A DNA stretch of 62,085 bases, filler included, from Sanchytrium tribonematis (GCA_018985235.1; 8 parts of 8 records of this genome joined end to end with filler, not necessarily neighbours in it), one strand, 5' to 3'. Positions 6,341 to 54,452 are shown, counted from the whole stretch's first letter. The notes: generated by a model not told the origin, from the letters alone. A program made the numbers and translations.

Positions 6341-7496
6341 ATGCTCAAAGATTTCTCGATTCCGGCTTCTCCTGTGAAGCAGCTTTCAAATTTACAATAC
6401 ACTCGCAAAATAGATTGTTTAAAAATAATACAAAATTTTTGGGAAAGTCAGGAGTATAAAACGATACAAATAGACAAGATTTTTTCTAGCGTATGGATAA
6501 ACGAACGCGATATTTTGGTCGGCACTAAATGCAATCACTTGCTACTTTTATCAAATGATAAAATTATAAAGATTCCCACCTTATTTCCTGAGCCTGATCC
6601 AAATTATATCAAGCATACAAGAAATTATTGCCAAGGAATTCATTCGCTAGAGGTAAACCCTAGCAAAACGCTGATGGGTGTTAGTGGCGGCAAACCCTAT
6701 GAGATCGTAATTATGAGATTACCTGAATTAGTGCCCATGGCGGTCTGTTTAGGTCATGATGATTTGGTATTTCAACTTGAATTTATTGATGACCATACTT
6801 TGGCTAGTTGTTCAAGAGACATGAAAGTCGGAATATGGGAATTGAGCTCTGCCTATTATTGCGGATTGACAGAGTCTGGACTTCCAATTTTTAAGCCCAA
6901 AACTATGATGGAAGGGCATGCTGCCCGAGTTCGAGACCTTTCAATTGACCATATAAAAAATCAAGTTTTTACTTGTTCCGCTGATCACAGCTGTAAAGTG
7001 TGGGATTTAGAGACTAGCCAAGCAATTTTGTCATTCCAACCAAATTATTGCGAAGAAATGATTTGTTCTTCGATAAGCCAAAATCTGTATTCTGTTGGTA
7101 GTCAAACTCACGTGACTCTTTTTGATAGTAGAATTAAGCAAGCTATTTTGTCTGTGGAAGGAAAAGATGAAGGTTGGGGAATTCGTAGCTTGGACCTTCA
7201 CAATGAGACAATAACGATAGGTGGTGGGAAGGGTCGAATTTCATTTTTTGATATAACCGCAAGCAAATATCTGCCAGTCAAAGACAAACCATACCATGTT
7301 AGTGGAGATGGTTGGTTCGTACTTTTCTTTCACATAGGATTATAGTAACCACGAGTACTTACGGACTATGTATGGAATAAGACTAAGAAACGCAATTTAT
7401 ACCATGTCGTACGATACTGACAGAACCCGATTATTTACTGGCGGCGGACCACTTGCTTTAGGTCTAGTTGGCAGTTATGCGTCATTATGGCACTAA
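6341..7496 (+). CDS. DCAF12: DCAF12/WDR40-like WD40 protein; 2 exons (intron 7319-7337)
   Basis: DKIFSSVW, VGTKCN, GIHSLEVNPSKT; after splicing the frame gives the family C-terminus NAIYTMSYD..RLFTGGGPL..GLVGSYASLWH*. Confidence 0.85.
7319..7337 (+). other. 19-nt spliceosomal intron GTACTTTTCTTTCACATAG
   Basis: Removal joins GDGWF to DYSNHE... and restores the conserved DCAF12 tail. Confidence 0.9.
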
Positions 7497-7561
7497 TCTA
7501 ATTTAAATAGAAATAAAATATCGTTATTCGCTATTTATTTAGAATTTGCATTGTTTTGGGT

Positions 7562-7729
7562 CTAGTGTGAAAGGTATTTTCGTCCCTTTAAAACTCTTCT
7601 GAGCAGAATTTTTTGGCCCATCCTGTCCTTCCATCTAGATAAAAAACCCCAACGCCTTTTTCTTCTGATGGTCGATGGTTGGTATGTTCTCCCATAACTG
7701 GTAAATCTTTTGAATACAATTGACAACAT
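7562..7729 (-). CDS. MRPL34: Mitochondrial ribosomal protein bL34m (55 aa, missed by the ORF track)
   Basis: Hand translation [55 protein letters not shown] fits the L34 signature. Confidence 0.9.
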
Positions 7730-7741
7730 GAGGAGTTTGCA

Positions 7742-8275
7742 ATGGGGAAATCAAAGAAAACTCGATTGATTAGAGTAAAGAAGATGGCAGCGGTGCCTAA
7801 AAAGCCGGCAGAAAAGAAAGAAGAGGTTAATCATGTCCCACAAATTCCAACTTCTATGTTTCTTAGCTATAATTCGGCACTTGTTCCACCATATTCCATT
7901 TTAGTGGACACCAATTTTATCAATATGTCTATAAAAAACAAGTTGGATGTCGTTGAAAATGCCATGACTTGCCTTTACGCTAAAGTTGAAATTTTACTTA
8001 CAGATTGTGTTGCAGCGGAACTGGAAAAACTTGGAGAAAAATACCGGTTAGCGCTAAAAACATCCAAGAGCTTTGAAAGACTTCCATGCTCTCACAAAGG
8101 AACTTATGCAGATGACTGCTTAGTCCAACGAGTTGAAAGGCATCGATGTTATATTATTGCTACTTGTGATAGGGATTTAAAGAAAAGAATTCGTAAGGTT
8201 CCAGGCGTGCCTATTATGTATGTAGGAAATCACCAATACAAGATAGAAAGACTTCCAGACGCATCATTATTTTAA
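7742..8275 (+). CDS. FCF1: rRNA-processing PIN nuclease FCF1/UTP24
   Basis: [43 protein letters not shown]. Confidence 0.97.
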
Positions 8276-8296
8276 TAAATTTATTGATCAGAATGT

Positions 8297-8713
8297 CTAC
8301 GCATATGAATGATTAGATGCTTTTGTGTAACAAATCTTTTCTCGCAAATATAACAAGCAAAATTGCTTGTTAAGTATGGCGCTTTTAACATATGTTTGAA
8401 CCTGTGAAATTTGCTCATCCAACTCCCCCAAATTAGCATATGGTAAGTTCATATGGGAAACAAAGGCATAAATATTTCTCGCGTTAATTCTAGTGTTATG
8501 AAAATTGCAAGTCTGCGATAGAATGTAAATGTTTGATAGGCAGGCACATGATAGCTCTGTAATAGTGGATTCATAATCGAAGCAACCAAATATGTATTTG
8601 AACAATGATAAATGGATCTTCAATAGCAGGATTGATTGATAAAATTCATTTTTCTTCTTGTTTGTAGAGTATTTAGAAATTAAAGCAATTTTATATATGC
8701 CCCAATAATTCAA
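8297..8713 (-). CDS. Possible hypothetical protein; start unresolved
   Basis: 138-codon open frame filling an otherwise empty interval; no upstream ATG or consensus intron found. Confidence 0.3.
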   Translation of the reverse strand: MNYWGIYKIALISKYSTNKKKNEFYQSILLLKIHLSLFKYIFGCFDYESTITELSCACLSNIYILSQTCNFHNTRINARNIYAFVSHMNLPYANLGELDEQISQVQTYVKSAILNKQFCLLYLREKICYTKASNHSYA

Positions 8714-8894
8714 AAATGTCGTCTGTGTTTGATTGCTCGGACGAGAATATTTGTAACTTATTTGTTATTTTGATCTTGATTCTTACTGCTCATGTTCCGA
8801 AGATCTGAATTTCTTCAGAGGCTGAGGAGTAGACCGAATTTCAATTACTAAATGTCTCACATACTCCTTAAATGAATTCAGATTAAAAAATTTA

Positions 8895-11139
8895 CTAATT
8901 ACTTTCATCGTTTTCTTTACGTACCTGGTCGAATGCTGTTGGGGACCACTGCTTCCAAGGATCCGATTTTGGACTAAATGGTGCAAAACCCTGTGTTCTG
9001 GGAGAAACAATGGATTCGAAATTAGGCGATGCGGATGGAAATATATTAAGAGGGCTTGCTGGTTGTTGCATTGCTGAAATTGCTGCAACATGCGCAGCTG
9101 CATAAGCATGTTGAATGTACCGGTGACCTGGTGCTTGTGAAGCATTTAAATTATTCATAACTTGTTGTACACGCTCTTGTAAAACACGATTTTCTTCTGG
9201 GTCGGCAATGGAATTAAGAACGCGTTGCACGAATGGTGCCCCGTACATTTGGTCGGATAATATGTCCTCCAAAATAAGGTATTCTTGAACATTCATACTT
9301 CCAGGAGTTACTGTAGTTGCAAAGAATAACTCTTTAAGAACCATCTGCCGAGCATCAGGGTCCTGAGACTGTTGAACTATTTTGAAAACAATCTGAGATG
9401 CCAATTTGTGCGTGCAAAGTTGGACCAAATGAGATACTATTTGAGGAGCGACTACTCTGTATCTTCCAGGCAAATTTGAAGAATCTAGTAGCCAATTAAC
9501 CAGTAAAATTCCATTAGGATTAGTTGAAAGTGTTAATACACTTCTAATTATAGCTAAAGCGACATGCTTCTTCTGTTTCATTTCTGCGTATTGTGAGTCG
9601 AGACAAGCTCTCATAGCTCTTGCTCCAAATCGACTTTGTCCAAGATCCAAGCATCTAGTATGCATTGCGTCATAAACAAATTGATTTTTAGAAGCACCTA
9701 ATCTTAAACAACATTGAACAACATAATTTCCAAACTAAATGAAATATAATTACTTGATCAATCATAAGCGGCGGAGTATACGCTTTAACTGCATTGCATA
9801 AAGCATCCATCTGCTCTGGAGTATCTGCTATATCTATTAGCTTTTGAACCACCCAGGTACCATGTTTGTGTGCACCCAATGTGGCAAAGTATGGTGCTAA
9901 AGATTTGATAATACGGAGTCTCTTTTCATTTGATCCCTTCAAAGCCAATTTTTGAACTATTGTGTTGCCAATATAATCAGCAGATAAAACTAAGACATCA
10001 TCTATTAATTCTTTATAAATAAATTCGTAATCCCTTTGCGTGTGATTACTGTCAAGTTTTCTCCTATACTCGCGAAGTTTGCTTTGATCTAGTTTTTTGA
10101 ATTCTGGAAGAGAAGGTAAAACGTCTTTGAATTCATCTTGCTGGCCTCTGAAATCTCCGAATCCAGATGGCGCCACCAATGGGGAAACTATGCTCTGATC
10201 TGTTCCCAAATCTTTTGGAATGTTTGGTTGGATTCTATTTTGGTAAAATGTCAAAGGCGTCATAACCCGAGGTGAAAAACTTGCACTTTGCGAAGAGTAC
10301 GAATTAGGCGACATAGGCTGAATTGTTGTGTTCAATTTCAAAGCACCTCGAATTGGAGATGAGACAATTGGCTCAGCTGATTTTGGAGACTTCGCGAAGC
10401 CGATTTTAAGGGTAACACCAAAAACTTCAGTGTTGTTCAATGATTTTTTAGCAATCAATGCGTCTTCCTCTTTTACAAAATTTACGAAACCACAATTTTT
10501 GTTTGTCAAAACACGACAGCTTTCAACATTTCCATACGGTGAGAATACAGTGTGAAGCATTCCAACGGAAACAGTCGCTGGTAAATTTCCGACATATAAT
10601 GACCTGCTTGAAACTACTGAATGATCGCTCTCGATTGCTTTCCCATAAGAAACACTGACTTTAATGGTATTTCCATCACTTAAATTAATGGATCCATTTT
10701 TGTCCAATTGGTCTTTTGCTGTAACAGCGTCTTGCGAGTTAACAAATGCAATTTGCATCAAGCTTTCTTTCTTGCGGTATGTCTCCAACTTATAGTTTCC
10801 AAATGCTCCAAGAACGACGGGACTTAATTCAGACTTGTCCATTGCTTCAATTATTAAAAACCGGGAAGCTTTTTCATTTGCTTCTAAATCTCCAAAACCC
10901 AACGTTTTTGTTGGAGTAACGGGTTCTTCGGTATCTATGTTTAATTTTTTAGTGTCCAAACCGAGTAATGACATAGTTGTTTGTGCGTGCATATAATCAT
11001 CCATTAATTTGTCTTTGAATGAACCTTCAACTGCTGACATGGGACCAGTGTGTGGGCGATGCGTCTTTTTTATGTCGTTATCATCTCTTGTTGTCTTTAA
11101 CGCAGCAGCGAAAGATTTTTGAGTATTTTGGGAAGACAT
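8895..11139 (-). CDS. RRM + Pumilio-repeat protein (Jsn1/Puf2-like); 2 exons (intron 9735-9753)
   Basis: RRM (SRSLYVGNL, KNCGFVNF) and PUF repeats (DYIGNTIVQK, HKHGTWVVQK); splicing gives DQ|FGNYVVQCCL, merging two ORFs. Confidence 0.92.
9735..9753 (-). other. 19-nt spliceosomal intron GTAATTATATTTCATTTAG
   Basis: Removal restores the PUF motif DQFGNYVVQ. Confidence 0.93.
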
Positions 11140-11403
11140 AAGATGGCTCTCCAGTACGCGTTTACAATAAAAGTGGATTTATTAACTTTGTGATTGGCCA
11201 TTTTATCATTTTTTATTGGAATATATAAAGGCAATGAATCAACAGCTTGCAAGCAATATTGCTTCCCTTACATTGGTGAGTTTTTGTCTTTCCAAATTGA
11301 AGTTGAAGTAAACATTAGCCATTGTCATGTTTCATTTTTGTTAGAAAAATTATTCATTGGTTACTAAGCCTTTCTTTAATCCTTACACTATAGCAAAAAT
11401 AGT

Positions 11404-11892
11404 TTATTTTTTTAAAGCAGATATGACAGTGGATAAGTCAACACCGTGAATAGTCTGTAAATTTTCATATTTAGATATTTTTAAAGCTCTTCGTTCTTCA
11501 CTTGTTTCTAACTTTCTTTTACTCTTAAAGGTGGACACTCTTTTTGACTTCATTTTTCTTACATTATACTGTTTAAACAAGCCATCATGGATTTCATCGT
11601 CAGTTAAAATTTGACATTTAAGAACACGATCTCCCAGAATATAATTGTTCATAGTTTCCGCAGCAATTTCAGCAACTTTGTCTTCTTCAAAGCAAATCCA
11701 GCCATAGTGTCTAGACTTTAAAGTCTGTGGATTTCTAGCCACTTTAACTTTTAAAACTTTACCAAACTGACTGAAATAACTTTTAAGAGCTGAGTCTTCA
11801 AATCCTTTGGGAAGGTGTGAAATAAACATTACAGCATGTTTTTTTTGAGCAGCGAAAGGATTGTCATTTAAAGTGTCAATCGCAACAGTCAT
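11404..11892 (-). CDS. NOP15: Nucleolar RRM protein Nop15/NIFK-like
   Basis: FISHLPKGF, YFSQFG, SRHYGWICF, AEIAAETMNNYIL. Confidence 0.88.
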   Translation of the reverse strand: MTVAIDTLNDNPFAAQKKHAVMFISHLPKGFEDSALKSYFSQFGKVLKVKVARNPQTLKSRHYGWICFEEDKVAEIAAETMNNYILGDRVLKCQILTDDEIHDGLFKQYNVRKMKSKRVSTFKSKRKLETSEERRALKISKYENLQTIHGVDLSTVISALKK

Positions 11893-12040
11893 TCCTTGTT
11901 AGATCCTTTAAATTGAAAGTTCCGAAAATAAATTTTACAGTCATTATTATCCAAGGTATTATCGTTCATAAAAAATCTATTAGTCCTGATACGTTCAACT
12001 AATTCAAATGTGTAAATTTGAGGAAAATCCGTGAAACTTC

Positions 12041-12535
12041 ATGACCACACTTTCTTCTCCATTTGCCCGCGCCAAAAAGGACAGCGTAATGAATGCCGTT
12101 CTAAATCCAAATCTAGAAAATTTCTTTACAGTCAGTTTCTTTGGGGCCGCAGTTGGCACTGGAATTGGCGTCTTTAAGCAATTAAATAATCCTGGACTTA
12201 CAAATTTTCCTGGAAAAATGATAACACGATATACATTAAAATATGGAGGGTTTGGCGCTGCAATTATGGGTGCACAAATGCTAACTTCTAATATAACGGA
12301 CAATGCTCATGTTATATTTGGTGCTGGGCTTTTTGCTGCTGGTCTTTTTCTGGGTGTGAGAAAAGGACAATTAGCAAATGGAATTGCTTATGGTGTGTCG
12401 TTTGGATTTAGCGGCTTGACATGCAGCTACTTCATGACAGAAGAGTGGTTGGATGGTAGATACCAAAAAACTGCTTTTCTTGGCGATTTGCAAAAGCATC
12501 AACAAGTTAGAGAACATTACTCTAATAAAATATAA
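12041..12535 (+). CDS. Tim17/22/23-family membrane protein (NDUFA11-like)
   Basis: Four Gly-rich TM segments with GxxxG patterns. Confidence 0.55.
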   Translation: MTTLSSPFARAKKDSVMNAVLNPNLENFFTVSFFGAAVGTGIGVFKQLNNPGLTNFPGKMITRYTLKYGGFGAAIMGAQMLTSNITDNAHVIFGAGLFAAGLFLGVRKGQLANGIAYGVSFGFSGLTCSYFMTEEWLDGRYQKTAFLGDLQKHQQVREHYSNKI

Positions 12536-12550
12536 ATTGAAAATAAACAT

Positions 12551-12733
12551 TTATTGTGATCTGCTTTTATATATAAAGTCAATTAAACAGTCCATTTCAT
12601 TTACTTCTTGCTGTGCAAAATGTTGCTTAACAGAAATTAGTAAATTTATCCGACTTGGCTTTTCTGGTAAAGGTAAATTAAATACAGTCATATATTGCAA
12701 TAGTTCAGGTGTTGATAACCTAGAAAAGTCCAT
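12551..12733 (-). CDS. SAP30 Sin3-binding-domain small protein
   Basis: DFSRL..L..Y...FNL, VKQHF..QEVNEMDCLIDFIY. Confidence 0.8.
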   Translation of the reverse strand: MDFSRLSTPELLQYMTVFNLPLPEKPSRINLLISVKQHFAQQEVNEMDCLIDFIYKSRSQ

Positions 12734-12765
12734 GAACGATCTGGAGTGTTTCAAAAGGACAAGAT

Positions 12766-14496
12766 TTATTGTTTGTTATCCCGCAAATAAACAGCCTGCT
12801 CTTGCTGAAGAAACTCAATGGCTTTCAAAGAATCGTGGGAAGAACAAAATAATTCTTGTGGTAGCTTGGGAAATTCAAATTTTGATGGAAAGAATCTAAA
12901 TTCCAAAAAATGTTCCACCTCGCTTATGAAATAAGAAAAAGAATTTCGAGTACGCTCAAAAAATAGCTGATCAAAACCGGGTCCATTATTAATTGTCAAA
13001 TATTGGATGGTTTTTAAGAAAGGAGTCTGTGTATTAGAATGTGGTTGTTTACGACTTAAAAGTTCAGACCTAATCTTTTCGACAATAATATTTTCCACAA
13101 AGTCAAATTTTGACCCCAAGACTACGGGACTCAGAGTCAAAGCACTGTATGTAATTTCTTTTGCAGAATTGAGGTCAAAAAGTTTTTCAGAGCAAACACC
13201 ATTTTTCAATAAAATTATGTTTATGCTAAACTTTATTCCGCATGGGTCAATTAATTCAATTAAATCTTCTTTCTTTTTGTCACTTAAAGATAATTTCTTG
13301 GGTGTTTGCTTCATTTTGGATGAATCTAAAATCGGCTTAATTGCTTTTAGCTCTTCAAATGAAAGAGTGGATGGACTTCCGATAAAGTCCATTTCTTTGA
13401 ATAGAATGTTTAACAGCTCCTCGTTTCTTGGACTTCTGAATAATTCTTTTTGGAAATACACCCATGGATGAGCCATCAATTCACAGACATAAATTTCAAA
13501 TTTTACAGCCTCGCTTGGTATGAATATATAATCCGATGACTCTAATATAAAAGAATTCTGTTCCTTGTCATGATTGAAAAATACAATTTTAAATTTCATT
13601 TTTGTTAAAAATTTAAAGTCAACTGTCATGACAATATCCACAGGCGAGCTAGCCCATGAGATTCCAAACTCGCAAATTTTCCCTTGACAAACAGGCATGT
13701 AAAATCCATTAATCTTTAGGCATTCACACAAATCTTTGTCATAGACTTGGTTATTAGTAATAAATTTGCAGTTGGAAGAAGATCTCACAATATAAGAAGC
13801 GCTTCTGTGAATTCCTCTCCTTAGGTCTTCAATTTGATTAGCATGATTGAAAAGCTCTACATCTTTGTTTAAAAGCAATAAATTACCTCGTGTCTCCACA
13901 TTTTCAACATCGACAATGGAGCACTGACAACATTCAACCAAATAGTCTTCCCGCTCTATGAAGATTAGAGAGTGAGGGGGTATTTCTATATGAACATAAC
14001 TTTGTCTTTCAAATGGAATAAAAGTCTCACTATTTTCTTGAAAATAATTAACGCCGGAAAATTGTGTGCGATAAAAGTAGAGAAAACCGGGACACTCAAG
14101 AGTCTGAAGAAACTCACCTCTACAGTCACAAATTGTATCATCAGCGCCAGTTAAAAATTCTCCAAGAATAATATTTCTTAATTCATTGTTTTCTTCCAAT
14201 TGGTAATGATAAATAATTTTGTTAATTAGCAAGTATGGAAAATCATCCAAATCACAAACAGGCTTACCATCACTTAACGCAAAGTTTTGACTTATTTCAA
14301 CAAGAATGCGAGTGTCCATAAAAATTTCACTAGGATTCAAGAATTTGACAATTTCTTCCTTTTTGAATATCTCTTTTAATTTATCAAAGTTGAATAAACT
14401 ATGATTGTAGATGCCATTTTCAGCAAATTGCAAACTATCTAGAGGCTCCCATGTAATATTATCAATATTTGGGTCATTTATAAAATATTGTTGCAT
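12766..14496 (-). CDS. Hypothetical protein (576 aa)
   Basis: Long ORF ending in AATAAA-embedded stop; no family recognised. Confidence 0.7.
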   Translation of the reverse strand: MQQYFINDPNIDNITWEPLDSLQFAENGIYNHSLFNFDKLKEIFKKEEIVKFLNPSEIFMDTRILVEISQNFALSDGKPVCDLDDFPYLLINKIIYHYQLEENNELRNIILGEFLTGADDTICDCRGEFLQTLECPGFLYFYRTQFSGVNYFQENSETFIPFERQSYVHIEIPPHSLIFIEREDYLVECCQCSIVDVENVETRGNLLLLNKDVELFNHANQIEDLRRGIHRSASYIVRSSSNCKFITNNQVYDKDLCECLKINGFYMPVCQGKICEFGISWASSPVDIVMTVDFKFLTKMKFKIVFFNHDKEQNSFILESSDYIFIPSEAVKFEIYVCELMAHPWVYFQKELFRSPRNEELLNILFKEMDFIGSPSTLSFEELKAIKPILDSSKMKQTPKKLSLSDKKKEDLIELIDPCGIKFSINIILLKNGVCSEKLFDLNSAKEITYSALTLSPVVLGSKFDFVENIIVEKIRSELLSRKQPHSNTQTPFLKTIQYLTINNGPGFDQLFFERTRNSFSYFISEVEHFLEFRFFPSKFEFPKLPQELFCSSHDSLKAIEFLQQEQAVYLRDNKQ

Positions 14497-14672
14497 TACT
14501 TCTGGCCTTGAAACGTTAACAGTTTTTGCACAATTTCAGTTAGAAATCAAACATTGGATTGTTATGCGATCCACTGGTTTCGCTCCCAAAATAATTACGG
14601 TTTCTTTACTTGAATGTTGTAATTTATGGAGAATTTCGATGAAACATTTATATTTTTCGCAGATTAATTTTA

Positions 14673-15209
14673 ATGGGTAGAAGTCGCAATGTAATAGATC
14701 TCACTAGTCCTGGTGCACTGAATCGATTAAGGCCTAGAAATAATTCTAGTTCAATAAGTCGCCATAGGCCAAATACCAACAATGTTATACAACTAATATC
14801 TAATAGAAGCCCTAGAGAAATCAATCGTTTGAGACAGCAAAGAGTGCTCAGAAACAATTTTCTTTTTTACAGGTCAGGCGCAGGCTTAGATCAGGATACC
14901 ATAAATCAACTTCCCACAAGGCTCGCTGGTTCACATGATAATATTGTTGATTTAACAGAAAGTGGACTTAATGCACAAAGAGATGTGATTGATTTGACAG
15001 ATGAGAAATGGGAATGGAAATTGACAATTGCAAAGCATAAAAATAATGATAACGTTCTCGAGGAGACCTGTTCCATTTGTTTAGAACACTACAAGCGAAA
15101 TGAAAAATGTATTGAATTGAAATGTAACCATGTATTCCATAGGGCTTGTGTTAGCCACTGGCTTCAACAAAATAACTCATGCCCGTTATGCAGATGCAAA
15201 GCGGGTTGA
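14673..15209 (+). CDS. RING-H2 E3 ligase with SUMO-interacting motifs (STUbL-like)
   Basis: CSICLE..LKCNHVFHRACVSHWL..SCPLCR; VIDLT, IVDLT, VIDLT. Confidence 0.85.
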   Translation: MGRSRNVIDLTSPGALNRLRPRNNSSSISRHRPNTNNVIQLISNRSPREINRLRQQRVLRNNFLFYRSGAGLDQDTINQLPTRLAGSHDNIVDLTESGLNAQRDVIDLTDEKWEWKLTIAKHKNNDNVLEETCSICLEHYKRNEKCIELKCNHVFHRACVSHWLQQNNSCPLCRCKAG

Positions 15210-15228
15210 AGCAATAAAGTACTGAAAC

Positions 15229-17122: not shown

Positions 17123-17324
17123 ATTATTTTCAGCGACAGTTTTGTTTTATCCATACAATTTATTCCATTGTGTTCTGGAATAAATTAGCTAGGGGTTCGG
17201 TATTTTATTCTACATAAAAGCATATTAAACGGAATTCTGCGTTATTACAAACAATAAATCATGACGAAAGAGTGCTCTCAAAGTTTCAAAATCACAAGAT
17301 TTTTCCAACACTCCTCAGATTTAA

Positions 17325-18486
17325 ATGGACATTCCAATTAATAGTGGGTCAATATTCAACGGAAATTCTATTTTGTTAGGCGGTGGTGGTGGGTCTAGTA
17401 AAAGTGGCATTAAGAATAAGCTCATCATGCTGGATGAAAAAGTTGTAGTCAGAAAGGAACTAATTCTCGAAGATGAACATGATTCAATTATGAGTGTACA
17501 TTCTGTGGATGACTATATTGTATTCTGTGCTAATGATTCCAAGACAAATATTAAAGAAAATATCAATAACGATTTGCGGGTTTATAAATTTATTAACGGC
17601 GAATTTGAACAGCAATGGAAAGGTCAAGCAATTTTCAAACCACCATCAGAGTACGTTAGAGTCGTCAGAATATCCCCCAAAAAGGACTATATACTTTGCG
17701 GGACCACCGAAAAAACGATAGTTGCAACAAAATTGGATCGCTATTCTATTTTGAAAGGTGAATTGCCAGATGAAGTATATGACATCGATTTTATTGATGA
17801 CACAATTGCGATTTTAACAATGCCTTCTCAAATTTCAATTATAGACATTAAGCCAGAAAAAATTGAGAATTTGTTTATTTTACCACTTCCAACTTATTCT
17901 GGGAGTAAAGCCTCTCCTAATTATAGATGTGCAAAGACAATTGCTTTTAACAATAAGCAAAAACTACTGATTGCAACAAATTTGGGGAGAGATCAAGGCT
18001 ATCTTTCTTGGTTTGATATTCAAAAAGAAGAAGAAATAACAAAAGAAATTCCAGAAGAAGATAAAGAAAATGCGAGACGTAAAAGTATAGTAAAAGTAAA
18101 ATGGGGATTTAAATTTCTAAAAACAAATTGTGTGTCGAAGCAACCAATAAGGAACATTGCCATAAGGTACTTTAAGTTTATGTAGCACAACACGAGAATT
18201 AATTGCATGTGCTCTTAGTGGTGATATTATCATTCTAAATTTCAATTTTTCAAATCTGTTCAAGTATACACCTCACAAATTTCCAGCTAGTGTTCTTTTA
18301 TTTATAGACAATGACAAAAAGTTGCTTTCATCTGGTGCTGATCAAATTGTGCATGTTGAAGCATTGGAGCAGAGCAAATTTAAATCCTTTAGTGTGGCTT
18401 ACTTAATAATCATAGCATTGATTGTTGGATTACTATCAGTTCTTTACGTTTTTTTCTATCAAGACTTTATGGATCAAGAATTATAA
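17325..18486 (+). CDS. SEC12: SEC12/PREB-like Sar1 GEF; 2 exons (intron 18167-18185)
   Basis: K-loop GGGGGSSKSGIKNKL; exon 2 supplies last WD repeat (HKFP, SSGAD), TM anchor and C-terminal DQEL. Confidence 0.88.
18167..18185 (+). other. 19-nt spliceosomal intron GTACTTTAAGTTTATGTAG
   Basis: Removal opens about 100 codons containing the expected SEC12 TM segment. Confidence 0.9.
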
Positions 18487-18584
18487 TAAATGTTAACTTG
18501 ATTTTTAAATTGCTTCAAATTCCGCATGTTTCGCATTTATCAACGGAATGCGTCAAATGTGCGACGTTTTGCATATTTTGAAAA

Positions 18585-20547
18585 ATGTCTTTATCATACC
18601 AAATATTGAACCCAGTTCAAATAAGCGTACCGTGTATATATCCGCATATTAATTTTAACTACAATTTTAAATTATTCAATGGAGATTTGTTCAAGGTCAA
18701 TTTTGAGCCTTATCCTATGAATATTGAAGAAAGATTTTATCAAGCAACTATAGATTACCGAGGAATTATAGGTGGCGGTCATATGTTTGTAGATAAAGCA
18801 AAAAGTTGTGACACATATCCTGGAATTCTAATGGAATTCAATTGGAATAACACCGAATATAAATTGGAAAAAATTAATTCAAACTTTGTGGTACAAGAAG
18901 TTATTCTAGATACGAGCAATCAAGCTAATGAGCAGCTGACATGTGGATTAGAGGCTGACTTAAGTGCTTTGTCTTTTTCAGATTCAGGGAAGCAGTTTCA
19001 ATTTGTAACACAGCAATCTTCATGTCCTGCCCAAGTAAAATATGCCAGTCTGGGAATTGCAGTGGACTGCTCCGTCTCACAACAATCAAAGAATGATATA
19101 AATGCAATAACGCAAGAAGTTTTGGCTAATCTTGCAAAAACAAATGTTGCTTTTGGTAAATTTTATAATGTTCATTTGGTTCTTAGCGACTTAGACATAC
19201 GGCTTAGCTGTAGTCAAACTTATACATCTCCTACAGATAGCATTAAAGATGGTGAATTCGATAAGTGGAATATTCCTTGTTTTAATAATTATCCAATAAT
19301 GCAAAGAATTAGTGATTTTTCAAAATGGAGAGGAAGTAGGAAAGATAAAATTGATGTATGGCATTTATATAGTACATGTGCTTCAGATTCAAAAGTAGGC
19401 TTAGCTTGGCCAAGTGCTGTTTGCAATACTGGGGCTACAGCTGCAACTGGTAACTACATGTATAGCGGGACTAGTATAAGTACTAGACAGCAATCCAGCT
19501 GGAAAGTTATGGCTCATGAGATTGCCCACAACTTTGGTGCAATCCACGATTGTTTAACGACTTGTGACTCATCCTGTCATACTTGTAGCAGTAACTGTGA
19601 TTGCGCTGGCAAATATCTCATGAATCCAAATCAAAATGTTGCAACCGATGATTTTTCACCCGGTACAATCCAGGATGTTTGCAACACTATACCAAGTTTC
19701 ACATGTTTGAAATCGGATGCTTCCTTAATTTATGAATTTGCTCAAAACAAATGTGGCAATGGTGTTGTAGACCCTGGAGAAGAATGTGATTGTGGAGATC
19801 TGTGTGATTCTGATACATGTTGTACAAATACGTGCAAATTAAAGCCAACTGCTCAATGTAGTGATAAGAATCAGGCTTGTTGCAATCAATGTAAATTTAA
19901 ACCAAAAGACACAATTTGCAGACTTAAAGAAAGTGTTTGTGATTCAGAAGAAAAATGCACTGGAAATAGTGGCAATTGTCCAGCTGATTCTTATGACAAT
20001 GATGGATCGTCATGTACCGATGGCTCATTTTCTGGAAATTGCGCATCAAAATATTGCACTTCTCCAGATAAGCAATGCACTGATGCTAATCCGTTGTCGA
20101 CTGGTGCTTGCACAGGATTTGGAGCCGAATCCAATGATTGTATTTTGACTTGCAACTTAAATGGTGGATGCGCTCAATTCCAATCATTTTTAATTGATGG
20201 CACAATCTGTGGAGGTGGTTTTGGTAACTGTGAGGCTGGATCCTGTCAATATTCAAGTTCTTGTAATCAGCATTTATGTAGGGGATCAATTTCGAGGATT
20301 TGTAAGTATATATAAAGTGTTTTTTATTATAGGGGCTTTGATTGTAGGTATTCCACTGCTGATGTGTGGCTATAAAAGATTCAGAAAAAAGAAAAACAGA
20401 GTACAGACTTCAGACAATAGAAAGACTGGAGATGGAGAGGAATGGGAAGTGTGGGAAACAGAAGAACAAAATCACATTCAGATAGAAGATGACCGGCAGC
20501 CATTGTCTCCTATTAAAAGAACGCCATATAGAGATCCAGACGAGTAA
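18585..20547 (+). CDS. ADAM metalloprotease-disintegrin; 2 exons (intron 20263-20281)
   Basis: HEIAHNFGAIHD zinc motif, Met-turn, CGNGVVDPGEECDCG disintegrin; exon 2 gives TM and cytoplasmic tail. Confidence 0.92.
20263..20281 (+). other. 19-nt spliceosomal intron GTAATCAGCATTTATGTAG
   Basis: Removal joins CQYSSS to WDQFRGF..TM, merging two overlapping ORFs. Confidence 0.88.
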
Positions 20548-20549
20548 AT

Positions 20550-22076: not shown

Positions 22077-22206
22077 TTTAATTGTCAGGAAAAATATTTA
22101 AAACATTATAATTAGTAAGTTCTTGGACTTCAGATTAGTCCTTAAAATTATTTTTCCGTATGCTTTTATTAATATCAATACAGTAGCATCAAAATGAAAA
22201 ATTTGT

Positions 22207-22516
22207 CTATTCTAGGTTGAAATAAATATCTGCTTTTAGTTTGGCTGCTTCTTGTAATTGCGCCTCGTCTGCACCGGCATTAAGCTTCTTGAATTCAGGA
22301 CAGCCTAAGATCAAGTGTCGAATGCGCATGTCTCTTCTATTTCCGGACTTCAGCATCTTATGACAAAGTATACATTCCTAAATTATTATAATTTACAAGA
22401 GGTGTTCCGTGGGTATTGTTGACATGTCGATCTAAATCAAATTTCCTCGGGAATGACTTGTTGCATTTGCGGCATATCAGAATCTTATTATTATTGGTGA
22501 TGAAGTCCAATCGCAT
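22207..22516 (-). CDS. Small C2H2 zinc-finger protein (96 aa); 2 exons (intron 22378-22396); missed by the ORF track
   Basis: MRLDF..CRKCNKSFPRKFDLDRHVNNTHGTPL|ECILCHKM..RIRHLILGC..YFNLE*. Confidence 0.85.
22378..22396 (-). other. 19-nt spliceosomal intron GTAAATTATAATAATTTAG
   Basis: Separates two zinc fingers; spliced CDS is 291 nt with no internal stop. Confidence 0.88.
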
Positions 22517-26141: not shown

Positions 26142-26241
26142 NNNNNNNNNNNNNNNNNNNNNNNNNNNNNNNNNNNNNNNNNNNNTTAATTAATTAANNN
26201 NNNNNNNNNNNNNNNNNNNNNNNNNNNNNNNNNNNNNNNNN
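26142..26241. other. Artificial contig linker
   Basis: N-run, TTAATTAATTAA (stops in six frames), N-run; 100 nt. Confidence 0.97.
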
Positions 26242-27951: not shown

Positions 27952-30900
27952 CTAATCCATGTAGCCTTTCAAGATTTCATCACCAATGCTTTGACGACCA
28001 ATTGTGAGGGCTGTGGATTCCCTTTGAGGTCCCTCAAACCTCTCTCTACTCAGCGTAATATCATAATTACGAGGAGATTCCAAATTAGGCGATTTTGTGG
28101 ATTCTTGTGATCTCTCTACATTTTCTATTTTTAAAGATGATTCTTTCTTTTCAGACATCTCAGTCTTGGATGACATTTCCTCATTGGAAACAGATTTGAC
28201 ATCAACCATACTTTGTGCATTTCTAAGCAGCGTGTTCTTTTTGAATTTATTGAATGGATGTGCATTTCTAAACGAAGTTCTTGGGGAATTTAATTCACTC
28301 AAAGATCTATAAGACCCACTATTCTTGTCACTAGGTAATTGGGGTAATGGTTCGACTACAATTGATTTTACCGCATTATTATCAAGTCTTGAATTCAATC
28401 TGGCTGGTTTTCTCTTTGAAATGGCAGAATTGAAGCTTTCTTTTCTGGCTTCAAATTCAGGAGCCACATAAAATGGACTGGAAGGTTCGTCATCTCTGTT
28501 GGAATCTTTAGATGAATTATTGGACCAACGAGGATCTTTTGGAGATTCTTTTGAAGAATCTTTAGACGTGCGTTGATTCTTTGATGAATCTTTTGAATTA
28601 TGCGCGTCTTTAGCAGATTCTTTTGCAGAATCTTTTTGTAATCGAGGATCCTTCTGTAGACTCTTTGTTTTTAAGCGCAACCCATCCAATTCAGTTTTTA
28701 AGATATCAAATTCCTCAGTACCAGCATACTCTTCTAAAATGGTCAACTCTAGATCCTTTAAGATGGTTTGTTCCATAAGAACTGCTCCATCTATATTGCC
28801 ACCAAAGAACTTTTGCAATTTGTTAAATTTCTTTTGTTTTGCAAGTCTATTTTGTTCGTCTAAATCTTCTTGACTTTCTGATGTTTCAGGCTCTTTTTCG
28901 TATATTTCACTGATCATGGATTCCAATTTAACCTCTTGTTGGTCGGATATCATCCTACTTAAAGATTTCATGGTTTCTAGGTGCTGCTCAGCACGATGTG
29001 CATAATCTACAGTATTATTGACTTGTTCTACAGGTACGTTTTCTCCAAATTTCTTTTGCAGCTTGTCAAATCGCTTTTTGTTGACATTCTTGCCATTTTT
29101 AACAGCTAAAGATTGAATTCTAGATTTCTCTAAAACATTAGGAGAAATGCGCTCTCCCAGAATATTGTAAAGTTTATCTATTCGCTTCATTCTAATATCC
29201 TTATTTGCCTTGTCATCCTCATCAAGATCTGCATCTGCATCTACCTCTTCCCTTTTAATTGATCTGGAGCTGACTCTTCTGTTAATATTTTCATCAAAAT
29301 AGTTTTGAAGCAATTCTGGGAATGCATCTTTCAAAAGAGAGATCTCATCTTCATTTTCTGTCAAATCATGATTAGATTCATTTAATGTAGGTTCAAAAAC
29401 TGTAACCTTCTTTTGAGATTTCATCAAACCATCATCTGGCGTAGTTCCAAGCATTTCTGCTAGTTTCTTTTGTCTTTTCTTTAAAATTCTTCTCTCGTCC
29501 TCAGTCAAATCATTCTTAGTGCCTAATTCTTCCGGTTCTTCAATCAATTCAGAACTTCTACTTTCTCCTTTGACTTCATTTTTGATCATGTTCATGATAG
29601 ATTGACGTGGTGGAGGCTCATTTTTATTTAATTCGATGTAACTAGGTGGTCTCCCGCCAAAGAATCCCTCTAATTTGTCCAATTTCTTAATTTTTTGACT
29701 CCTTAGTTCTTCTGCTTTTTTCATGAAGCTCTCTTTGCTCTGCATGCTTACGCGTTGATCACTTTCATCACTCGTCAATACGTCACTGAATACGGTTTGT
29801 CTTCTGCTTTCTACATAGACTGGTTTCTCTCCAAAGAATTTGGCCAATTTTTTATCTTTGGTGACCATCTTCATTTTGTTGATATTCGTTGACATGGAAT
29901 GAAAGTACCTTCCAGTGAATGGAAATGTGACAAAATATCGAATAACTACTTTTTCTAGAGCATTTTCACGTACATTTCTGTAATAATCTACTTGAGAAAA
30001 TGGCGTGCCTTCTGGCAATTCAGAGACATCTACAAAGTCCATTTTAGTCAATTCCAGCATGAGATTATAGTCAGGTGTATAATCAATGAAATACGACTTG
30101 ATTTCTTGGTCTAAATTAATAAATTTTTACCTTCTTGCCATTGTTGAAAATTTGGTGATTTCATAAATCCGTGTAACAAGTGCAATTTGAGCACATTGTA
30201 AGCATCCTGCTGAGTCTCATCAAAGAATGTTTGATCTTTCTGCACAATCTCATAAGTTGGTACTGGCACGTCCTCTATAATATCTGGTCTGACATTTAAT
30301 CTTAGAGGCGAGTTCTTGCGTAAATACATTTTATGGAGGTATCTCGCGAATAATAACCATGTCTCAGGTGGTGATTCTACAAATATCTCTACTTCTAACC
30401 AAAACAACAAGTATTCAATGGAATACTCCTTATAACAATATTCTGCAAAATATTTAAATCCATTTTTAGATCTGAGAATCTTCTTTAAAGTCATATCGTC
30501 CTGGTCTTGGGTCTGCCTAAATCTATCTAATGCTATTAACATGCCAGAATGAGTTAATTCTTCTTCATTTTCCTCTACTTGTTTCTCAGAGTGAATAATG
30601 ATAATCGTGTCATTGTTATTCAAGACATCTCCTACTAGCGTATCAAAGTGAATAGGCTGTTCTTGAGCATTTAACACCAGTCTAACCATCAATGGACTCA
30701 CTTGCTTGCCTTCTAATGCCTCCAGTTGAAAATTAAAATCAGCTTCAACCAATTTTGCTAAATAATCGATAGATTGGGTGGTATCAACTGTAATTTTAAA
30801 TTGATATTGCAATAATTGAATGTTGACTGAAATATTGATGAACTCTACCATTGGATTTCTTTTGTTTCTCTTGTTTTCGGCCAAAAATACGCGCAAATCT

Positions 30901-35035: not shown

Positions 35036-35280
35036 TTACTGTTTTGATTCTTTCGGTTTCTTATCTTTTGGTTTAGCTACATTATTATTGATTTACATTT
35101 ATCAAGTTTTAATTTTTCAAGTTCTTTTAACACTCTTTCCAAATCTGTTGACACTCTTTCTAAATTTGATTTTAATCGTTCGTTTTCAGCTGCAAGATCA
35201 GGTTGTACAGGTAACATTGGTACTTGATCTACAACCGATGGTGCATCCACAAAACGCTGAGGGTAACTTCCACGACCCAT
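35036..35280 (-). CDS. Small coiled-coil protein with Lys-rich tail; 2 exons (intron 35077-35096)
   Basis: LAAENERLKSNLE heptads; splicing gives ..DKSKPKDKKPKESKQ*. Confidence 0.55.
35077..35096 (-). other. 20-nt putative intron GTAAATCAATAATAATGTAG
   Basis: Matches the THAYNTAG consensus; no homology support. Confidence 0.6.
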
Positions 35281-36549: not shown

Positions 36550-37311
36550 CCAACAATTCATTCACTGGAAGCATCCCACAATCATTGAGACAGGTGAAAA
36601 CATTGGATATATCTCATAATTACTTGAGTGGCTGCATCAATTTCCAATTCAATGGCTCTTATTTCTATTTCAATGATAATTATTTGAGTGGCAATTTGTC
36701 ATTTCGAGCACCTTCTCAGCTGTATTTACAGAATAACAGAGTGAATGACGTGTTGATTAGCAATGCAACAGGGTTAACAAATTGTAGTTTGGCCAATAAT
36801 CCAATGGCACCTGGAGTGTTTGGTAAAACATTTAAAAATCAATGCAATTTGAATGGGATTTACACGGCTGGTGAAAGCACTTGTAGAATACTGACAATTG
36901 AAGAAGCTAAAAAACACGATTCACTTTTTCAATCTACTATAAATACAAGTTTAGATGTTTCTCAAATTTTGAAAGATAAAAGCATTATCACCCGTATCCT
37001 CAATTAATTTAGGCCCCATTCGCATGTTGACATCTGCTATAGCGTCTCAGGAATCTTCCATACCTCATTTTATTCCCAGAAATGAAACTACATCTCAAAT
37101 TTCAGTTTCAATCATCCCATTTGAATGGAAGCAAGTGGAGACATTTAAACTTGTTATTTCACCCATAATCATATTGAAATTACTTATTGATTCATTGCTA
37201 TTGATGATTGTATTAAAAATAACCCCATTCAAGAAATTATTGCAAAAGAAACAACAAAAAAGTGAAAGATCTAGTCACTATTTAAGTTTTAGCATGAATG
37301 GTAGACTCTAG
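36550..37311 (+). CDS. LRR single-pass membrane protein, copy 1 (5'-partial; intron 36994-37012)
   Basis: Paralog of 37391-39517; spliced IITRPIRM aligns to paralog IITRPIRL; shared tail HYLSFSMN. Confidence 0.88.
36994..37012 (+). other. 19-nt spliceosomal intron GTATCCTCAATTAATTTAG
   Basis: Boundaries confirmed by the intronless tandem paralog. Confidence 0.93.
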
Positions 37312-43994: not shown

Positions 43995-45594
43995 TTATTT
44001 TTTACTTTTTAACAATGTAACCCCCTCTTCAATTCTACCCATCAATTTATCATGATCTCCCAATAATTCAATCACGTCACTCAATTCCATTTGTAATACC
44101 ATACCCACTAATTTACTCACTAATTCTGGCTCCATAGGTCGAATATATCCAAATAATGAATTACCAATCATCTTTTTAGCTTGCATTTCATCCATTTGAG
44201 CAACTTGAGCCAATGGGAGTGGTAATTTCACACCAGATGGCGTATCAATCAATGCAGCACCTCCTAATTGACCTGGTCTGCCAATGGGTCTACTCATTTG
44301 ACCACCATGGCCTGTATGGAGGGGTCTTGCCATGCCGCCCATACCTCTATTCATACCAGATACGCCTGTTAATCCCTGTAATGGACGCATTGGACGCATT
44401 CCAAGGGGTCTCACAACATTCATTCTTTCTCTATATTGCTGTTCCAACTGCATTCTCCGTTGTTCTTTACGCTGTGCCAATGCGACATATAATGGCTTAC
44501 TACCCACAATTTTACCATTCATTTCAGTCACTGCTTTACAGGCTTCATCACTATTCGTAAAACTGACAAATCCAAATCCCTTGCTTCTTTGATTTGCATC
44601 TCTCATGATTTTACAACTTGTAATTTCACCAAATACTTTAAATTCATTCATTAATTGGGTGTCTGACATTTGATCATCTATATTCTTAATATAACAATTG
44701 GTAGAGTTGGTTAATTCATGTTGTTTAGAGAGATTGGCTTGTCGTTGTTGCTTCTTTTGTGCGGGTGAGACATAGAGTACTAAATCAGGTAAATTAGATT
44801 CACCATTTGCATCCGATTGATCACTTTTTAATTCTGGGTGTTTCTCAATTAATTCCTTGACGGGGACATCATTTAATTGTAATGCGCTATTGGCACTTTC
44901 ATGATCTTCATAATTGATGAATGCAACACCTTGTCCATTGACAAATACACTGGTCATGGCTCCATATTCTTTAAAAATCAATTCTAAATCGGAATCTGTC
45001 CAATGTTTTGGAAATTGTTTAATGTAGATATTAGTGAATAAATCATTAGTTTGTCGTTCATTTTTAGGGATGAAGAGATGGACATGGACTTGTTGGCCAT
45101 TCATGTACTTTAAATGGACAGATTGGATGGCATTTAAAGCATCTTCTTTGGATTCAAAATGGACGAAACCATATCCTTTAGATTGGCCATTTGCAGTGGC
45201 TACTTTACAGGATATGATCTTGCCGAATTGAGAGAATGTATCATGAAGTGCTTTATGGTCGATATCCGGATGTAGATTCTTGATGAAGATATTGCCTAAA
45301 TGAGTTAAAATGACCTTCATTGGATTTACGGATGGATGGATCACGCTGAGACCACATAATTCTACATGGTTTATTCTTAATTGGGGTGTAATTTAATGAA
45401 AATGCTCTGTTGGCGTCATCAGGGTGCGCGAAATTGACATAAGCATAACCGAGGGATTGTCGGGTGATATTGTCACGACAGACTCTGACAGAGGAGACAG
45501 TGCCCACGACAGAGAACATCTCGAATAACATGGCTTCTGTGACAGATTTATCCAATTCGCCGACGTAGAGAGAGGTTGATGCTGGTTGTTGCAT
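43995..45594 (-). CDS. PAB1: Cytoplasmic poly(A)-binding protein; 2 exons (intron 45296-45314)
   Basis: Four RRMs and MLLE domain; splicing restores [21 protein letters not shown]. Confidence 0.97.
45296..45314 (-). other. 19-nt spliceosomal intron GTCATTTTAACTCATTTAG
   Basis: Exact restoration of the highly conserved RRM1-RRM2 linker. Confidence 0.95.
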
Positions 45595-45622
45595 TTGTTT
45601 AAAGGAGGGACCCCGTGAAGAG

Positions 45623-53494: not shown

Positions 53495-54452
53495 ATGAAT
53501 TTCTTTAAAACTAAGTCAAAAACTCCCCAAGAGCTTGTCAAGTCTTTGAGAGACTCGATTACAAGTAGCAAGTTTGACGAATCCAACAGAATCATAAATC
53601 AGTTAAAAGTAAGCGAGGATGAGCAACTTTTACAAGTTTTGCAGGAATTTATTGCTAGTGACACCCTATATCTGACATTACTACATATGCAACATTATGA
53701 GTTCGAGGCTAAAAAAGATTTAGTTTATTTGGTCAGCGTTTTGTTGCGAAAGCACGCAAACACTTTAGTTGATTATATGGTTGATCGAGAATCTAAACAA
53801 ACTCAATTATTAAGTTATTGGATTGGGAATTACAGTAACGCCGATATTGCATTAAATTGCGGTATGCTTCTGAGAGAGTGCATTCGATACAATGGCCTTG
53901 CTTTTCTAATTTTAGAAAACAAACAGCTTTTGGAGCAATTTTTTCAATTAGTTGAATTACAAACATTTGACATAAGCAGCGATGCTTTTGCCACCTTTAA
54001 GGAACTTCTCACAAAGCATCCAATTGACGAATTTTTGGAGAAAAACTATGATTATTTTTTTGAAAAATATACAACTCTTTTAAATAGTCAAAATTATGTT
54101 ACAAAACGGCAATCGCTCAAACTCCTCGGCGAGATTCTTTTAGACAAACAAAATTATAATGTCATGATGAAGTACATTTCAAATGTTGACAATCTGAAAT
54201 TGCTTATGAATTTGTTAAGGGACAAATCTAAAAATATCCAATATGAGGCATTTCATGTGTTCAAGGTCGTTATTATTTACCTAGATTTTCGTTGCTAATC
54301 CAAACAAGACTGAGCAAGTGAAAGATATACTACTTAAAAATAAGGAAAAACTGCTTCTATTTTTGAGCAATTTTCACAACGATAGGACAGAAGATGAACA
54401 ATTTATGGATGAAAAAGCCTACTTAATACGACAAATACAGGACCTGGAATAG
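53495..54452 (+). CDS. HYM1: MO25/CAB39/Hym1; 2 exons (intron 54266-54284)
   Basis: [29 protein letters not shown]; splicing restores [15 protein letters not shown]. Confidence 0.97.
54266..54284 (+). other. 19-nt spliceosomal intron GTCGTTATTATTTACCTAG
   Basis: Exact restoration of the conserved FHVFKxFVANP. Confidence 0.95.

What the first reader, a model, noticed from the sequence alone, without database searches (positions are those of the whole stretch)
9735..9753. Fused branch point and 3' splice site: invariant T-H-A-Y-N-T-A-G with A at -6
Seen: the last 8 nt of the ten introns are TCACATAG, TCATTTAG, TTATGTAG, TTATGTAG, TAATTTAG, TAATTTAG, TAATGTAG, TAATTTAG, TCATTTAG, TTACCTAG. T(-8), A(-6), Y(-5) and TAG are invariant, with no CAG acceptor. 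The 5' site is weak beyond GT(A/C) (two GTC starts, no G at +5) and there is no room for a polypyrimidine tract. Known: TNAY is the core branch motif, and Stentor tiny introns also place an A 6 nt from the 3' end. Inference: the 3' site is set by distance from the branch A, the lariat loop is only 14-15 nt, and the geometry is convergent with ciliates.
Basis: partly seen in the sequence, partly recalled or inferred. Interest (0 to 1): 0.82.

Follow-up and report, generated by a model that had tools for sequence, protein, structure and literature searches.

The report
Nineteen-base introns in a sanchytrid fungus
Ten genes of this small-genomed fungus (a sanchytrid, a parasite group of algae) are interrupted by introns only 19-20 bases long whose last eight bases follow one fixed pattern, which likely merges the branch point and the acceptor into a single signal, a layout described for the ciliate Stentor but not, in the papers searched, for fungi.

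Summary
The ten elements exist at the stated places. Their last eight bases are exactly as listed: T(-8), A(-6), Y(-5) and TAG in 10 of 10, donors GTA (8) or GTC (2), no G at +5.

They are real introns. Removing them restores exact colinearity with homologues in four genes (PUF, PABP, Mo25, DCAF12-like) and long reading frames in the other six. A motif-blind scan shows an excess of frame-bridging GT..AG pairs at exactly 19 nt (10 of 338, about 2 expected).

The organism is a sanchytrid-clade fungus, closest to Amoeboradix gromovi (86% and about 70% protein identity). The sanchytrid genome paper used plain ORF calls and does not mention introns.

Relatives' ORFs break at the same two positions. 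Their read-through tails fit the same octamer at inferred lengths of 19-24 nt, so the motif is anchored to the 3' end.

T-H-A-Y matches the yUnAy branch consensus in the U2-pairing register with A(-6) bulged. That this A is the branch point is inferred; no RNA or lariat data were available.

The geometry is already described for Stentor (A at -6), so this is a new member of a known kind. Interest is moderate.

The parts
9735..9753 (-). Focal 19-nt intron (phase 0) in an RRM + Pumilio-repeat gene. Exon 1 is 11139..9754 and exon 2 is 9734..8898.
   Evidence: Removal gives ..LMIDQ|FGNYVVQCC.., the sequence that Syncephalis and Spinellus homologues carry uninterrupted. Unspliced, the frame stops after 21 codons.
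9735..9742 (-). Composite 3' octamer of the focal intron. T(-8) is at 9742, the invariant A(-6) (predicted branch point) at 9740, and the TAG acceptor at 9737-9735.
   Evidence: Position counts over ten introns; U2 register test. The branch function is inferred.
7319..7337 (+). 19-nt intron, phase 0, in a DCAF12-like WD40 gene
   Evidence: Pfam Beta-prop_DCAF12 covers profile 14-302 before the intron and 345-380 of 381 after it, in the shifted frame.
18167..18185 (+). 19-nt intron, phase 2, in a gene of unknown family (280 + 99 codons)
   Evidence: ORF continuity only. Exon 2 ends in a hydrophobic C-terminal segment.
20263..20281 (+). 19-nt intron, phase 1, in an ADAM-type (reprolysin + disintegrin) gene
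   Evidence: ORF continuity: 560 + 87 codons. Exon 2 supplies the expected membrane span and basic tail. An alternative GTT donor at 20257 uses the same acceptor.
22378..22396 (-). 19-nt intron, phase 0, in a small C2H2 zinc-finger gene (49 + 56 codons)
   Evidence: ORF continuity; zf-C2H2 in exon 1. Not proven by homology.
30111..30130 (-). 20-nt intron, phase 1, in an RGS-domain gene
   Evidence: Joins open frames of 389 and 718 codons. The RGS domain ends just before it.
35077..35096 (-). 20-nt candidate intron, phase 1, in a small coiled-coil gene. This is the weakest of the ten.
   Evidence: Only 12 codons follow it. It is accepted on motif and position only.
36994..37012 (+). 19-nt intron, phase 1, in an LRR protein gene cut by a contig end
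   Evidence: ORF continuity: 147 + 98 codons. A motif-less GTT..AAG alternative at 36957-36975 would bridge the same two frames.
45296..45314 (-). 19-nt intron with a GTC donor, phase 1, in the poly(A)-binding protein gene
   Evidence: Exon 1 residues 5-91 align to yeast Pab1 (6r5k_D) 40-127. Exon 2 starts at Pab1 131. Two residues plus the split codon fill 128-130.
54266..54284 (+). 19-nt intron with a GTC donor, phase 0, in the Mo25/Hym1 gene
   Evidence: Removal gives ..HVFK|IFVANP.. as in other fungi. Pfam Mo25 covers profile 2-280 before and 278-332 after.

Best explanation
These are real GT-AG introns of 19-20 nt in nuclear genes of a sanchytrid-clade fungus, and their shared 3' octamer T-H-A-Y-N-T-A-G is most likely a yUnAy branch site placed so that the branch A lies 6 nt from the junction, so that branch site and acceptor would be read as one composite signal.

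Inferred course of splicing:
1. A weak donor (GTA or GTC, often after exonic AAG) is paired.
2. SF1/BBP and then U2 bind positions -11..-5 with A(-6) bulged.
3. The first step would make a lariat with a 14-15-nt loop and a 5-nt tail.
4. The only AG downstream, 5 nt away, is used in the second step without a pyrimidine tract.

Length variation sits between donor and motif.

Shown here: the introns, their positions, the motif and its 3' anchoring.
Inferred: the branch nucleotide, the factors involved and the lariat size.
For: Introns are real:
- Exact colinearity with homologues after removal in 4 of 10 genes: PUF, PABP, Mo25, DCAF12-like.
- All ten shift the frame and give a stop within 21 codons if retained.
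- The motif-blind excess lies only at L=19.
- An independent assembly of a DNA run carries 6 of the 10 without change.

Same positions in relatives:
- All 4 close relatives of Mo25 and all 4 of the PUF protein break after the same residue.
- 5 of these 8 tails fit GT..THAYNTAG, at 24, 20, 21, 21 and 19 nt. The other 3 stop within four codons, before the motif could appear.
- A random tail fits in 7.5-8% of trials.
- For the two tails that run on into exon 2, the inferred length restores the exon-2 frame.

Branch reading:
- A(-6) is 10/10, T(-8) 10/10 and Y(-5) 10/10; -9 is Y in 8/10 and -10 is A in 7/10.
- This is the yUnAy/UACUAAC register (consensus recalled).
- The bulge at -6 gives the most U2 pairs, 4.4 of 6; the next best is 3.8, at a register with A in only 2/10.

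Machinery: the published eggNOG table of A. gromovi lists U2AF1, U2AF2, BBP/SF1, SF3B1, PRP8, BRR2, BUD13 and SNU17 (PMC8371127 supplement file 4).

Precedent: Stentor's putative branch A is at -6.
Against: - Excision and the branch nucleotide are inferred from DNA alone.
- The sample is n=10 from one 62-kb window.
- Six junctions rest on ORF continuity. One (35077) has only 12 downstream codons. One (36994) has a motif-less alternative.
- The relatives' evidence is at amino-acid level, so it is degenerate. It concerns homologous introns of two genes, which are not independent samples.
- A(-7) is present in 4 of 10 and A(-10) in 7 of 10, and either could branch in some introns.
- The spliceosome gene list is for a relative, not this genome, and the stored table is cut.
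- A 5-nt branch-to-acceptor tail is shorter than budding yeast tolerates (recalled, not checked).
Confidence: 0.7

Rival explanations
1. The introns are real, but the octamer is an extended acceptor signal read by proteins (U2AF small subunit or second-step factors). The branch would form at another A, or at variable As such as -7 or -10.
For: A(-10) occurs in 7/10 and A(-7) in 4/10. No branch was mapped. In myxobolid and dicyemid ultra-short introns the putative branch As move away from the AG as the intron lengthens (PMC13644364, passages).
Against: Only A(-6) is invariant. Its neighbours match the U-n-A-y spacing and the U2 register better than any other register does. In relatives the motif stays 3'-anchored over inferred lengths of 19-24 nt.
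Confidence: 0.15
2. Length-measuring ('caliper') excision as proposed for chlorarachniophyte nucleomorph introns. Any AT-rich 19-20-nt GT..AG segment would be removed, and the octamer would be a by-product of composition or shared descent.
For: The length class is the same narrow one (18-21 bp in the B. natans nucleomorph; PMC6009652, passages), and the introns are AT-rich.
Against: Column invariance is far beyond what composition gives. 338 GT..AG pairs of 19 nt exist in the window and most lie inside open frames unspliced. Inferred lengths in relatives reach 24 nt.
Confidence: 0.07
3. These are not introns but frameshift errors, pseudogene lesions or chance motif matches.
For: The window does hold one frame switch that is not an intron (about 52270-52285, at a run of five T). 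About 2 chance ORF-bridging pairs are expected at L=19.
Against: Ten breaks all coincide with GT-N-THAYNTAG. Essential genes are affected (PABP). Four relatives break at the same residue with different tails. An independent assembly agrees.
Confidence: 0.03

Closest known systems
Stentor coeruleus 15-16-nt introns (PMC9505925, passages read)
   Same: GT..AG ends, AT-rich sequence and a very narrow length range. The putative branch A is at a fixed -6 (position 10 of 15), giving a 5-nt tail with no pyrimidine tract. A canonical U2 branch-binding site and U2AF are present.
   Different: Here the introns are 19-20 nt (loop 14-15 nt, against 10-11). The organism is a fungus, not a ciliate. Introns are sparse (about 10 in roughly 55-60 genes). 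The motif around the A is clearer (T at -8 invariant), whereas the Stentor paper reports no strong branch consensus.
Trichomonas/Giardia fused branch site and acceptor (PMC12316389, passages read)
   Same: The branch site and the 3' splice site form one conserved block at the intron end. The genome is intron-poor. A short class exists (23-28 nt).
   Different: There the block is 12 nt with the branch site ACTAA at -12..-8, plus a conserved 7-nt donor. Here the block is 8-10 nt with the A at -6, and the donor is weak.
Bigelowiella natans nucleomorph introns, 18-21 bp (PMC6009652, passages read)
   Same: The same length class, an AT bias and GT..AG ends.
   Different: No discernible branch A or other motif is reported there. 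Density is about 3.1 introns per gene, in a relict endosymbiont nucleus. Here the branch-like motif is explicit, the density is low, and the gene set is an ordinary nuclear one (Serinc, ADAM, RGS, a Ty3-type element).
Microsporidian short introns and the ultra-short introns of myxobolid myxozoans and Dicyema (PMC13644364, passages read)
   Same: Reduced parasite genomes among opisthokonts with introns under 30 nt, weak splice-site motifs and U2AF retained.
   Different: Median lengths there are 22-27 bp, with weakly conserved As whose distance from the AG grows with intron length. Here the A-to-AG distance is fixed. The microsporidian lower limit of about 23 nt is recalled, not checked.

Membership tests
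U2-type GT-AG spliceosomal introns | GT at the 5' end and AG at the 3' end | tested here: met
   10 of 10
U2-type GT-AG spliceosomal introns | Removal restores the reading frame and colinearity with intron-less homologues | tested here: met
   By homology in 4 of 10; by open frames only in the other 6
U2-type GT-AG spliceosomal introns | Branch-site motif (yUnAy) upstream of the acceptor, able to pair with U2 | tested here: met
   Positions -9..-5 read y(8/10) U(10/10) n A(10/10) y(10/10); the best U2 register has the bulge at -6. This is sequence only.
U2-type GT-AG spliceosomal introns | Excised from RNA as a lariat | not testable with these tools
   No transcript or lariat data could be laid on the window.
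U2-type GT-AG spliceosomal introns | Spliceosome genes and snRNAs in the same genome | tested here: inconclusive
A relative's published annotation lists U2AF1/2, SF1, SF3B1, PRP8, BRR2 and RES subunits.
Stentor-type tiny introns with the branch A at -6 | Narrow length and a conserved A six bases from the 3' end | tested here: met
   8 introns of 19 nt and 2 of 20 nt; A(-6) 10/10; Stentor figures
Stentor-type tiny introns with the branch A at -6 | Length of 15-16 nt | tested here: not met
   19-20 nt here; 19-24 nt inferred in relatives
Trichomonas/Giardia fused 12-nt branch-acceptor motif | ACTAA at -12..-8 followed by a conserved run to the AG, plus an extended donor | tested here: not met
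   Positions -12..-9 are variable, the A is at -6, and the donor is conserved only to +3
Chlorarachniophyte nucleomorph introns | 18-21 nt, no internal motif, very high density, nucleomorph gene set | tested here: not met
   The length fits. However, a motif is present, density is about 10 per 61 kb, and the gene content is that of a fungal nucleus

The most novel reading that the evidence does not exclude
Sanchytrid fungi splice introns of 19-24 nt, as short as any reported for opisthokonts, with a complete canonical spliceosome (U2AF, SF1, RES). The signal is a minimal composite yUnAy-N-UAG with the branch 6 nt from the acceptor, reached independently of Stentor. Because the published sanchytrid proteomes were called as plain ORFs, roughly one gene in five or six is split or truncated there.
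Probability: 0.6. Interest if true: 0.65.

Novelty: new member of a known kind. Interest (0 to 1): 0.55.

Why it matters
It adds a third, unrelated lineage to the very small set with introns below about 20 nt. Here, unlike the nucleomorph case, an explicit branch-like motif is visible, and the closest named relative keeps an ordinary set of splicing factors. That makes questions about the smallest lariat, and about acceptor choice without a pyrimidine tract, testable in a fungus.

There is also a practical consequence. The sanchytrid protein sets used in fungal phylogenomics and gene-content studies were derived from uninterrupted ORFs (PMC8371127, methods passage). In the protein collection, the window's own Mo25, PUF and PABP entries carry read-through tails (P0001, P0121, P0135). 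Proteins such as PABP, Mo25 and the PUF protein are therefore truncated or split in those sets.

Tried and rejected
- **RNA evidence.** No RNA holder is listed for the stretch, so splicing could not be checked on reads.
- **Whole genome.** None is held, so there is no genome-wide logo and no snRNA search. Rfam on the window found only a tRNA.
- **DNA of relatives.** Two scans of JGI metagenome contigs, with PABP exon 2 and with the five-sequence PUF alignment, found no relative.
- **Third protein search.** PABP exon 1 found no close relative; the best hit was 68% identical.
- **Codon-usage scoring of candidate junctions.** It was too weak over 30 codons: only two of the ten passed, along with many false ones. 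It was dropped in favour of homology and the control-dinucleotide scan.
- **Candidate +52711-52729** (ends AATTGTAG, no T(-8) or A(-6)). It bridges 150 + 45 codons. The one close relative, P0131, ends with the same three residues and a stop. About 2 chance bridgings are expected at 19 nt. No ORF support lies downstream. Judged more likely a true C-terminus, but not excluded.
- **Other rejected candidates:**
  - -42975-42993 (ends CAG) lies at the end of the first of two tandem kinase-like genes.
  - +36060-36082 lies at a gene end next to a new ATG.
  - The frame overlaps at 12438-12532 and 14643-14677 are gene ends or starts.
  - -27630-27648 fits the pattern but is antisense to the Cornichon gene.
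  - -25291-25310 lies after a stop codon, and +51989-52008 lies 17 nt from a contig start; neither can be verified.
- **Nucleomorph or ciliate origin.** Rejected on gene content and closest relatives.

Full report
**What is at the coordinates.** Positions 9735-9753 read on the minus strand are a 19-nt GT...TAG element. It lies between two long minus-strand open frames, 11178..9691 and 9734..8898. All ten elements of the finding were located.

**What the window is.**
- GC is about 0.34-0.36 throughout.
- Open frames in the standard code are packed at roughly one per kilobase, with most start codons within about 20 codons of the preceding stop.
- Pfam content is that of an ordinary eukaryotic nucleus with a fungal flavour: Serinc, mitochondrial carrier, ADAM-type protease, RGS, GH5 glucanase, MNN1-type mannosyltransferase, Mo25, TIP41, Rpn13, PABP, S6e, and a decayed Ty3-type element.
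- The Mo25 exon is 86-89% identical to three metagenome ORFs and to a EukProt protein of Amoeboradix gromovi. The next hits, at about 50%, are chytrids, Glomeromycota and other early fungi.
- The PUF exon gives the same picture at 69-76% identity (70% to A. gromovi in the alignment).
- The source is therefore a sanchytrid-clade fungus, not A. gromovi itself. Published sanchytrid genomes are 10.5-11.2 Mb with GC of about 35% (PMC8371127, passages).
- From 26142 onward the window is a chain of contigs of 5057, 5051, 5045, 5041, 5036 and 5012 nt. They are joined by 100-nt spacers made of 44 N, a twelve-base all-frame stop linker and 44 N. Frames that cross spacers are artefacts, and I did not use them.

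**Are they introns?** Four junctions are proven by homology.
- PUF (the focal intron): removal gives ..LMIDQ|FGNYVVQCC.., exactly what the Syncephalis and Spinellus proteins have uninterrupted.
- PABP: exon 1 aligns to yeast Pab1 residues 40-127 and exon 2 starts at 131. The two remaining residues and the split codon fill 128-130.
- Mo25: removal gives ..HVFK|IFVANP.. as in other fungi. The Pfam profile runs 2-280 and then 278-332.
- DCAF12-like propeller: the profile runs 14-302 and then 345-380 of 381 in the shifted frame.

The other six rest on open frames. They range from very strong (RGS gene, 389 + 718 codons) to weak (35077, only 12 codons downstream). All ten are 19 or 20 nt long, so retention shifts the frame and meets a stop within 21 codons.

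A scan that ignores the interior asked for GT..AG pairs joining at least 100 open codons to at least 40, with an early stop if unspliced. It passes 10 of 338 pairs at L=19. All other dinucleotide pairs pass at 5.97 per 1000, about 2 expected. Lengths 12-33 other than 19 are at background. Seven of those ten carry the octamer. The other three are a gene end (42975), a motif-less alternative at the 36994 junction (36957), and 52711.

Contigs assembled independently from a DNA run differ from the window at 22 bases and one 3-nt gap in 16 kb. They carry the five introns in that 16-kb stretch unchanged and, on a second stretch, the Mo25 intron.

**The motif.**
- T(-8), A(-6), T(-3), A(-2) and G(-1) are each 10 of 10.
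- Position -5 is T in 8 and C in 2. Position -9 is a pyrimidine in 8 of 10. Position -10 is A in 7 of 10.
- Donors are GTA (8) or GTC (2). Position +5 is never G.
- Both GTC donors and two of the GTA donors follow exonic AAG.
- Under the inner-intron composition, ten of ten A has probability 3e-5 and ten of ten T has probability 7e-4.
- T rather than C at -3 is not remarkable in introns with 12% C.
- The full 19-nt pattern occurs 9 times against 1.15 expected, and the 20-nt form 4 times against 1.14. That pattern was derived from the same data.

**Relatives.** All four close relatives of each of the two proteins end their ORF after the same residue as the window's exon 1. The few residues that follow are a translation of their introns.
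- A script enumerated codon choices. Five of the eight tails fit GT...T-H-A-Y-N-T-A-G, at 24 and 20 nt (Mo25) and at 21, 21 and 19 nt (PUF).
- The other three stop within four codons, before the motif could appear.
- Random AT-rich tails fit in 7.5-8% of trials.
- For the two tails that run on into exon 2, the inferred length gives back (I/V)FVANP and FGNYVV.
- The octamer is therefore kept at the 3' end while length changes on the donor side.
- These are homologous introns read at amino-acid level. They show conservation; they are not ten new samples.

**How it most likely works.** T-H-A-Y preceded by a pyrimidine is the yUnAy branch consensus (recalled). I scored the six positions around a bulged base for pairing with the conserved U2 branch-binding hexamer. 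The register with the bulge at -6 is best, at 4.4 of 6 pairs with A in 10 of 10. The next best is 3.8, at a register with A in only 2 of 10.

With A(-6) as the branch, the lariat loop is 14 nt (19-nt introns) or 15 nt (20-nt introns) and the tail is 5 nt. Only Y-N-T lies before the AG, which leaves no room for a pyrimidine tract.

The closest named relative keeps the usual factors. Its published eggNOG table lists U2AF1, U2AF2, BBP/SF1, SF3B1, PRP8, BRR2, PRP21, PRP40, BUD13 and SNU17 (PMC8371127 supplement file 4, which is cut as stored).

All of this is inference from DNA. Neither excision nor the branch nucleotide was observed.

**Comparison with what is known.**
- Stentor's 15-16-nt introns have the putative branch A at position 10 or 11, i.e. 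-6, with a 5-nt tail (PMC9505925). The geometry itself is therefore not new.
- Trichomonas fuses ACTAA at -12..-8 with the acceptor (PMC12316389).
- B. natans nucleomorph introns of 18-21 bp show no branch A, which led to a 'caliper' model (PMC6009652).
- A 2026 survey lists ciliates, microsporidia, dicyemids and myxobolids as the lineages with introns under 30 bp (PMC13644364). Sanchytrids are not among them.

**Is it in print?**
- The sanchytrid genome paper predicted proteins with TransDecoder on contigs. In its main text 'intron' occurs only in a reference title and 'splic' not at all. In the supplements that could be searched, these words occur only inside annotation strings (one scanned PDF was not searchable).
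- A search for papers holding both 'sanchytri' and 'intron' gave 9. I read matched passages of two. The titles and abstracts of the rest concern other topics.
- A six-phrase search for tiny or ultra-short introns gave 249 papers, of which 40 were listed. None of those listed concerns this group.
- I therefore found no report of these introns; this is limited to that library.

**Verdict.** It is a new member of a known kind, of moderate interest, with a practical consequence for sanchytrid gene sets.

Noticed in passing
window 26142-26241, 31299-31398, 36450-36549, 41595-41694, 46736-46835, 51872-51971, 56984-57083: 100-nt spacers (44 N, a twelve-base all-frame stop linker, 44 N) join separate contigs of 5057 down to 5012 nt. 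Open frames that cross them, such as 51920-52312 or 55796-57028, are partly artefacts.
   Followed up: yes
window about 52262-52290 (+): A gene switches frame at a run of five T with no possible intron. One extra T would keep the frame. A relative (P0132) has a single ORF across this point with about 28 extra residues. This may be an indel, a pseudogene or an assembly error. The DNA run laid did not cover it.
   Followed up: partly
window 45832-45852 (+): A 21-nt GTATGT...TTATTTAG element directly follows an ATG inside the unannotated ORF 45569-46492. It fits the octamer, is a multiple of three and has no in-frame stop, so ORF logic cannot say whether it is spliced.
   Followed up: no
window 31399-34621 (+): A decayed Ty3/gypsy-type retroelement. 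Its reverse transcriptase, RNase H and integrase zinc-finger pieces lie in different frames.
   Followed up: no
window 52720-53480: About 760 nt without any long open frame on either strand, in an otherwise tightly packed sequence. Rfam found nothing there.
   Followed up: partly
window 42089-42889 and 42988-43827 (-): Two tandem, weakly kinase-like genes about 130 nt apart. The overlapping third frame between them is not an exon.
   Followed up: partly
window 7000-23000 against run X1: The DNA run's contigs differ from the window at 22 substitutions and one 3-nt gap (at 11953) in 16 kb. This suggests a very close strain or allele. None of the differences lies in an intron.
   Followed up: partly
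relatives P0122, P0124 (PUF) and P0003 (Mo25): The inferred intron lengths of 21 and 24 nt are multiples of three. In each, the terminal TAG of the intron is in frame as the stop, so retention would still truncate the protein.
   Followed up: partly
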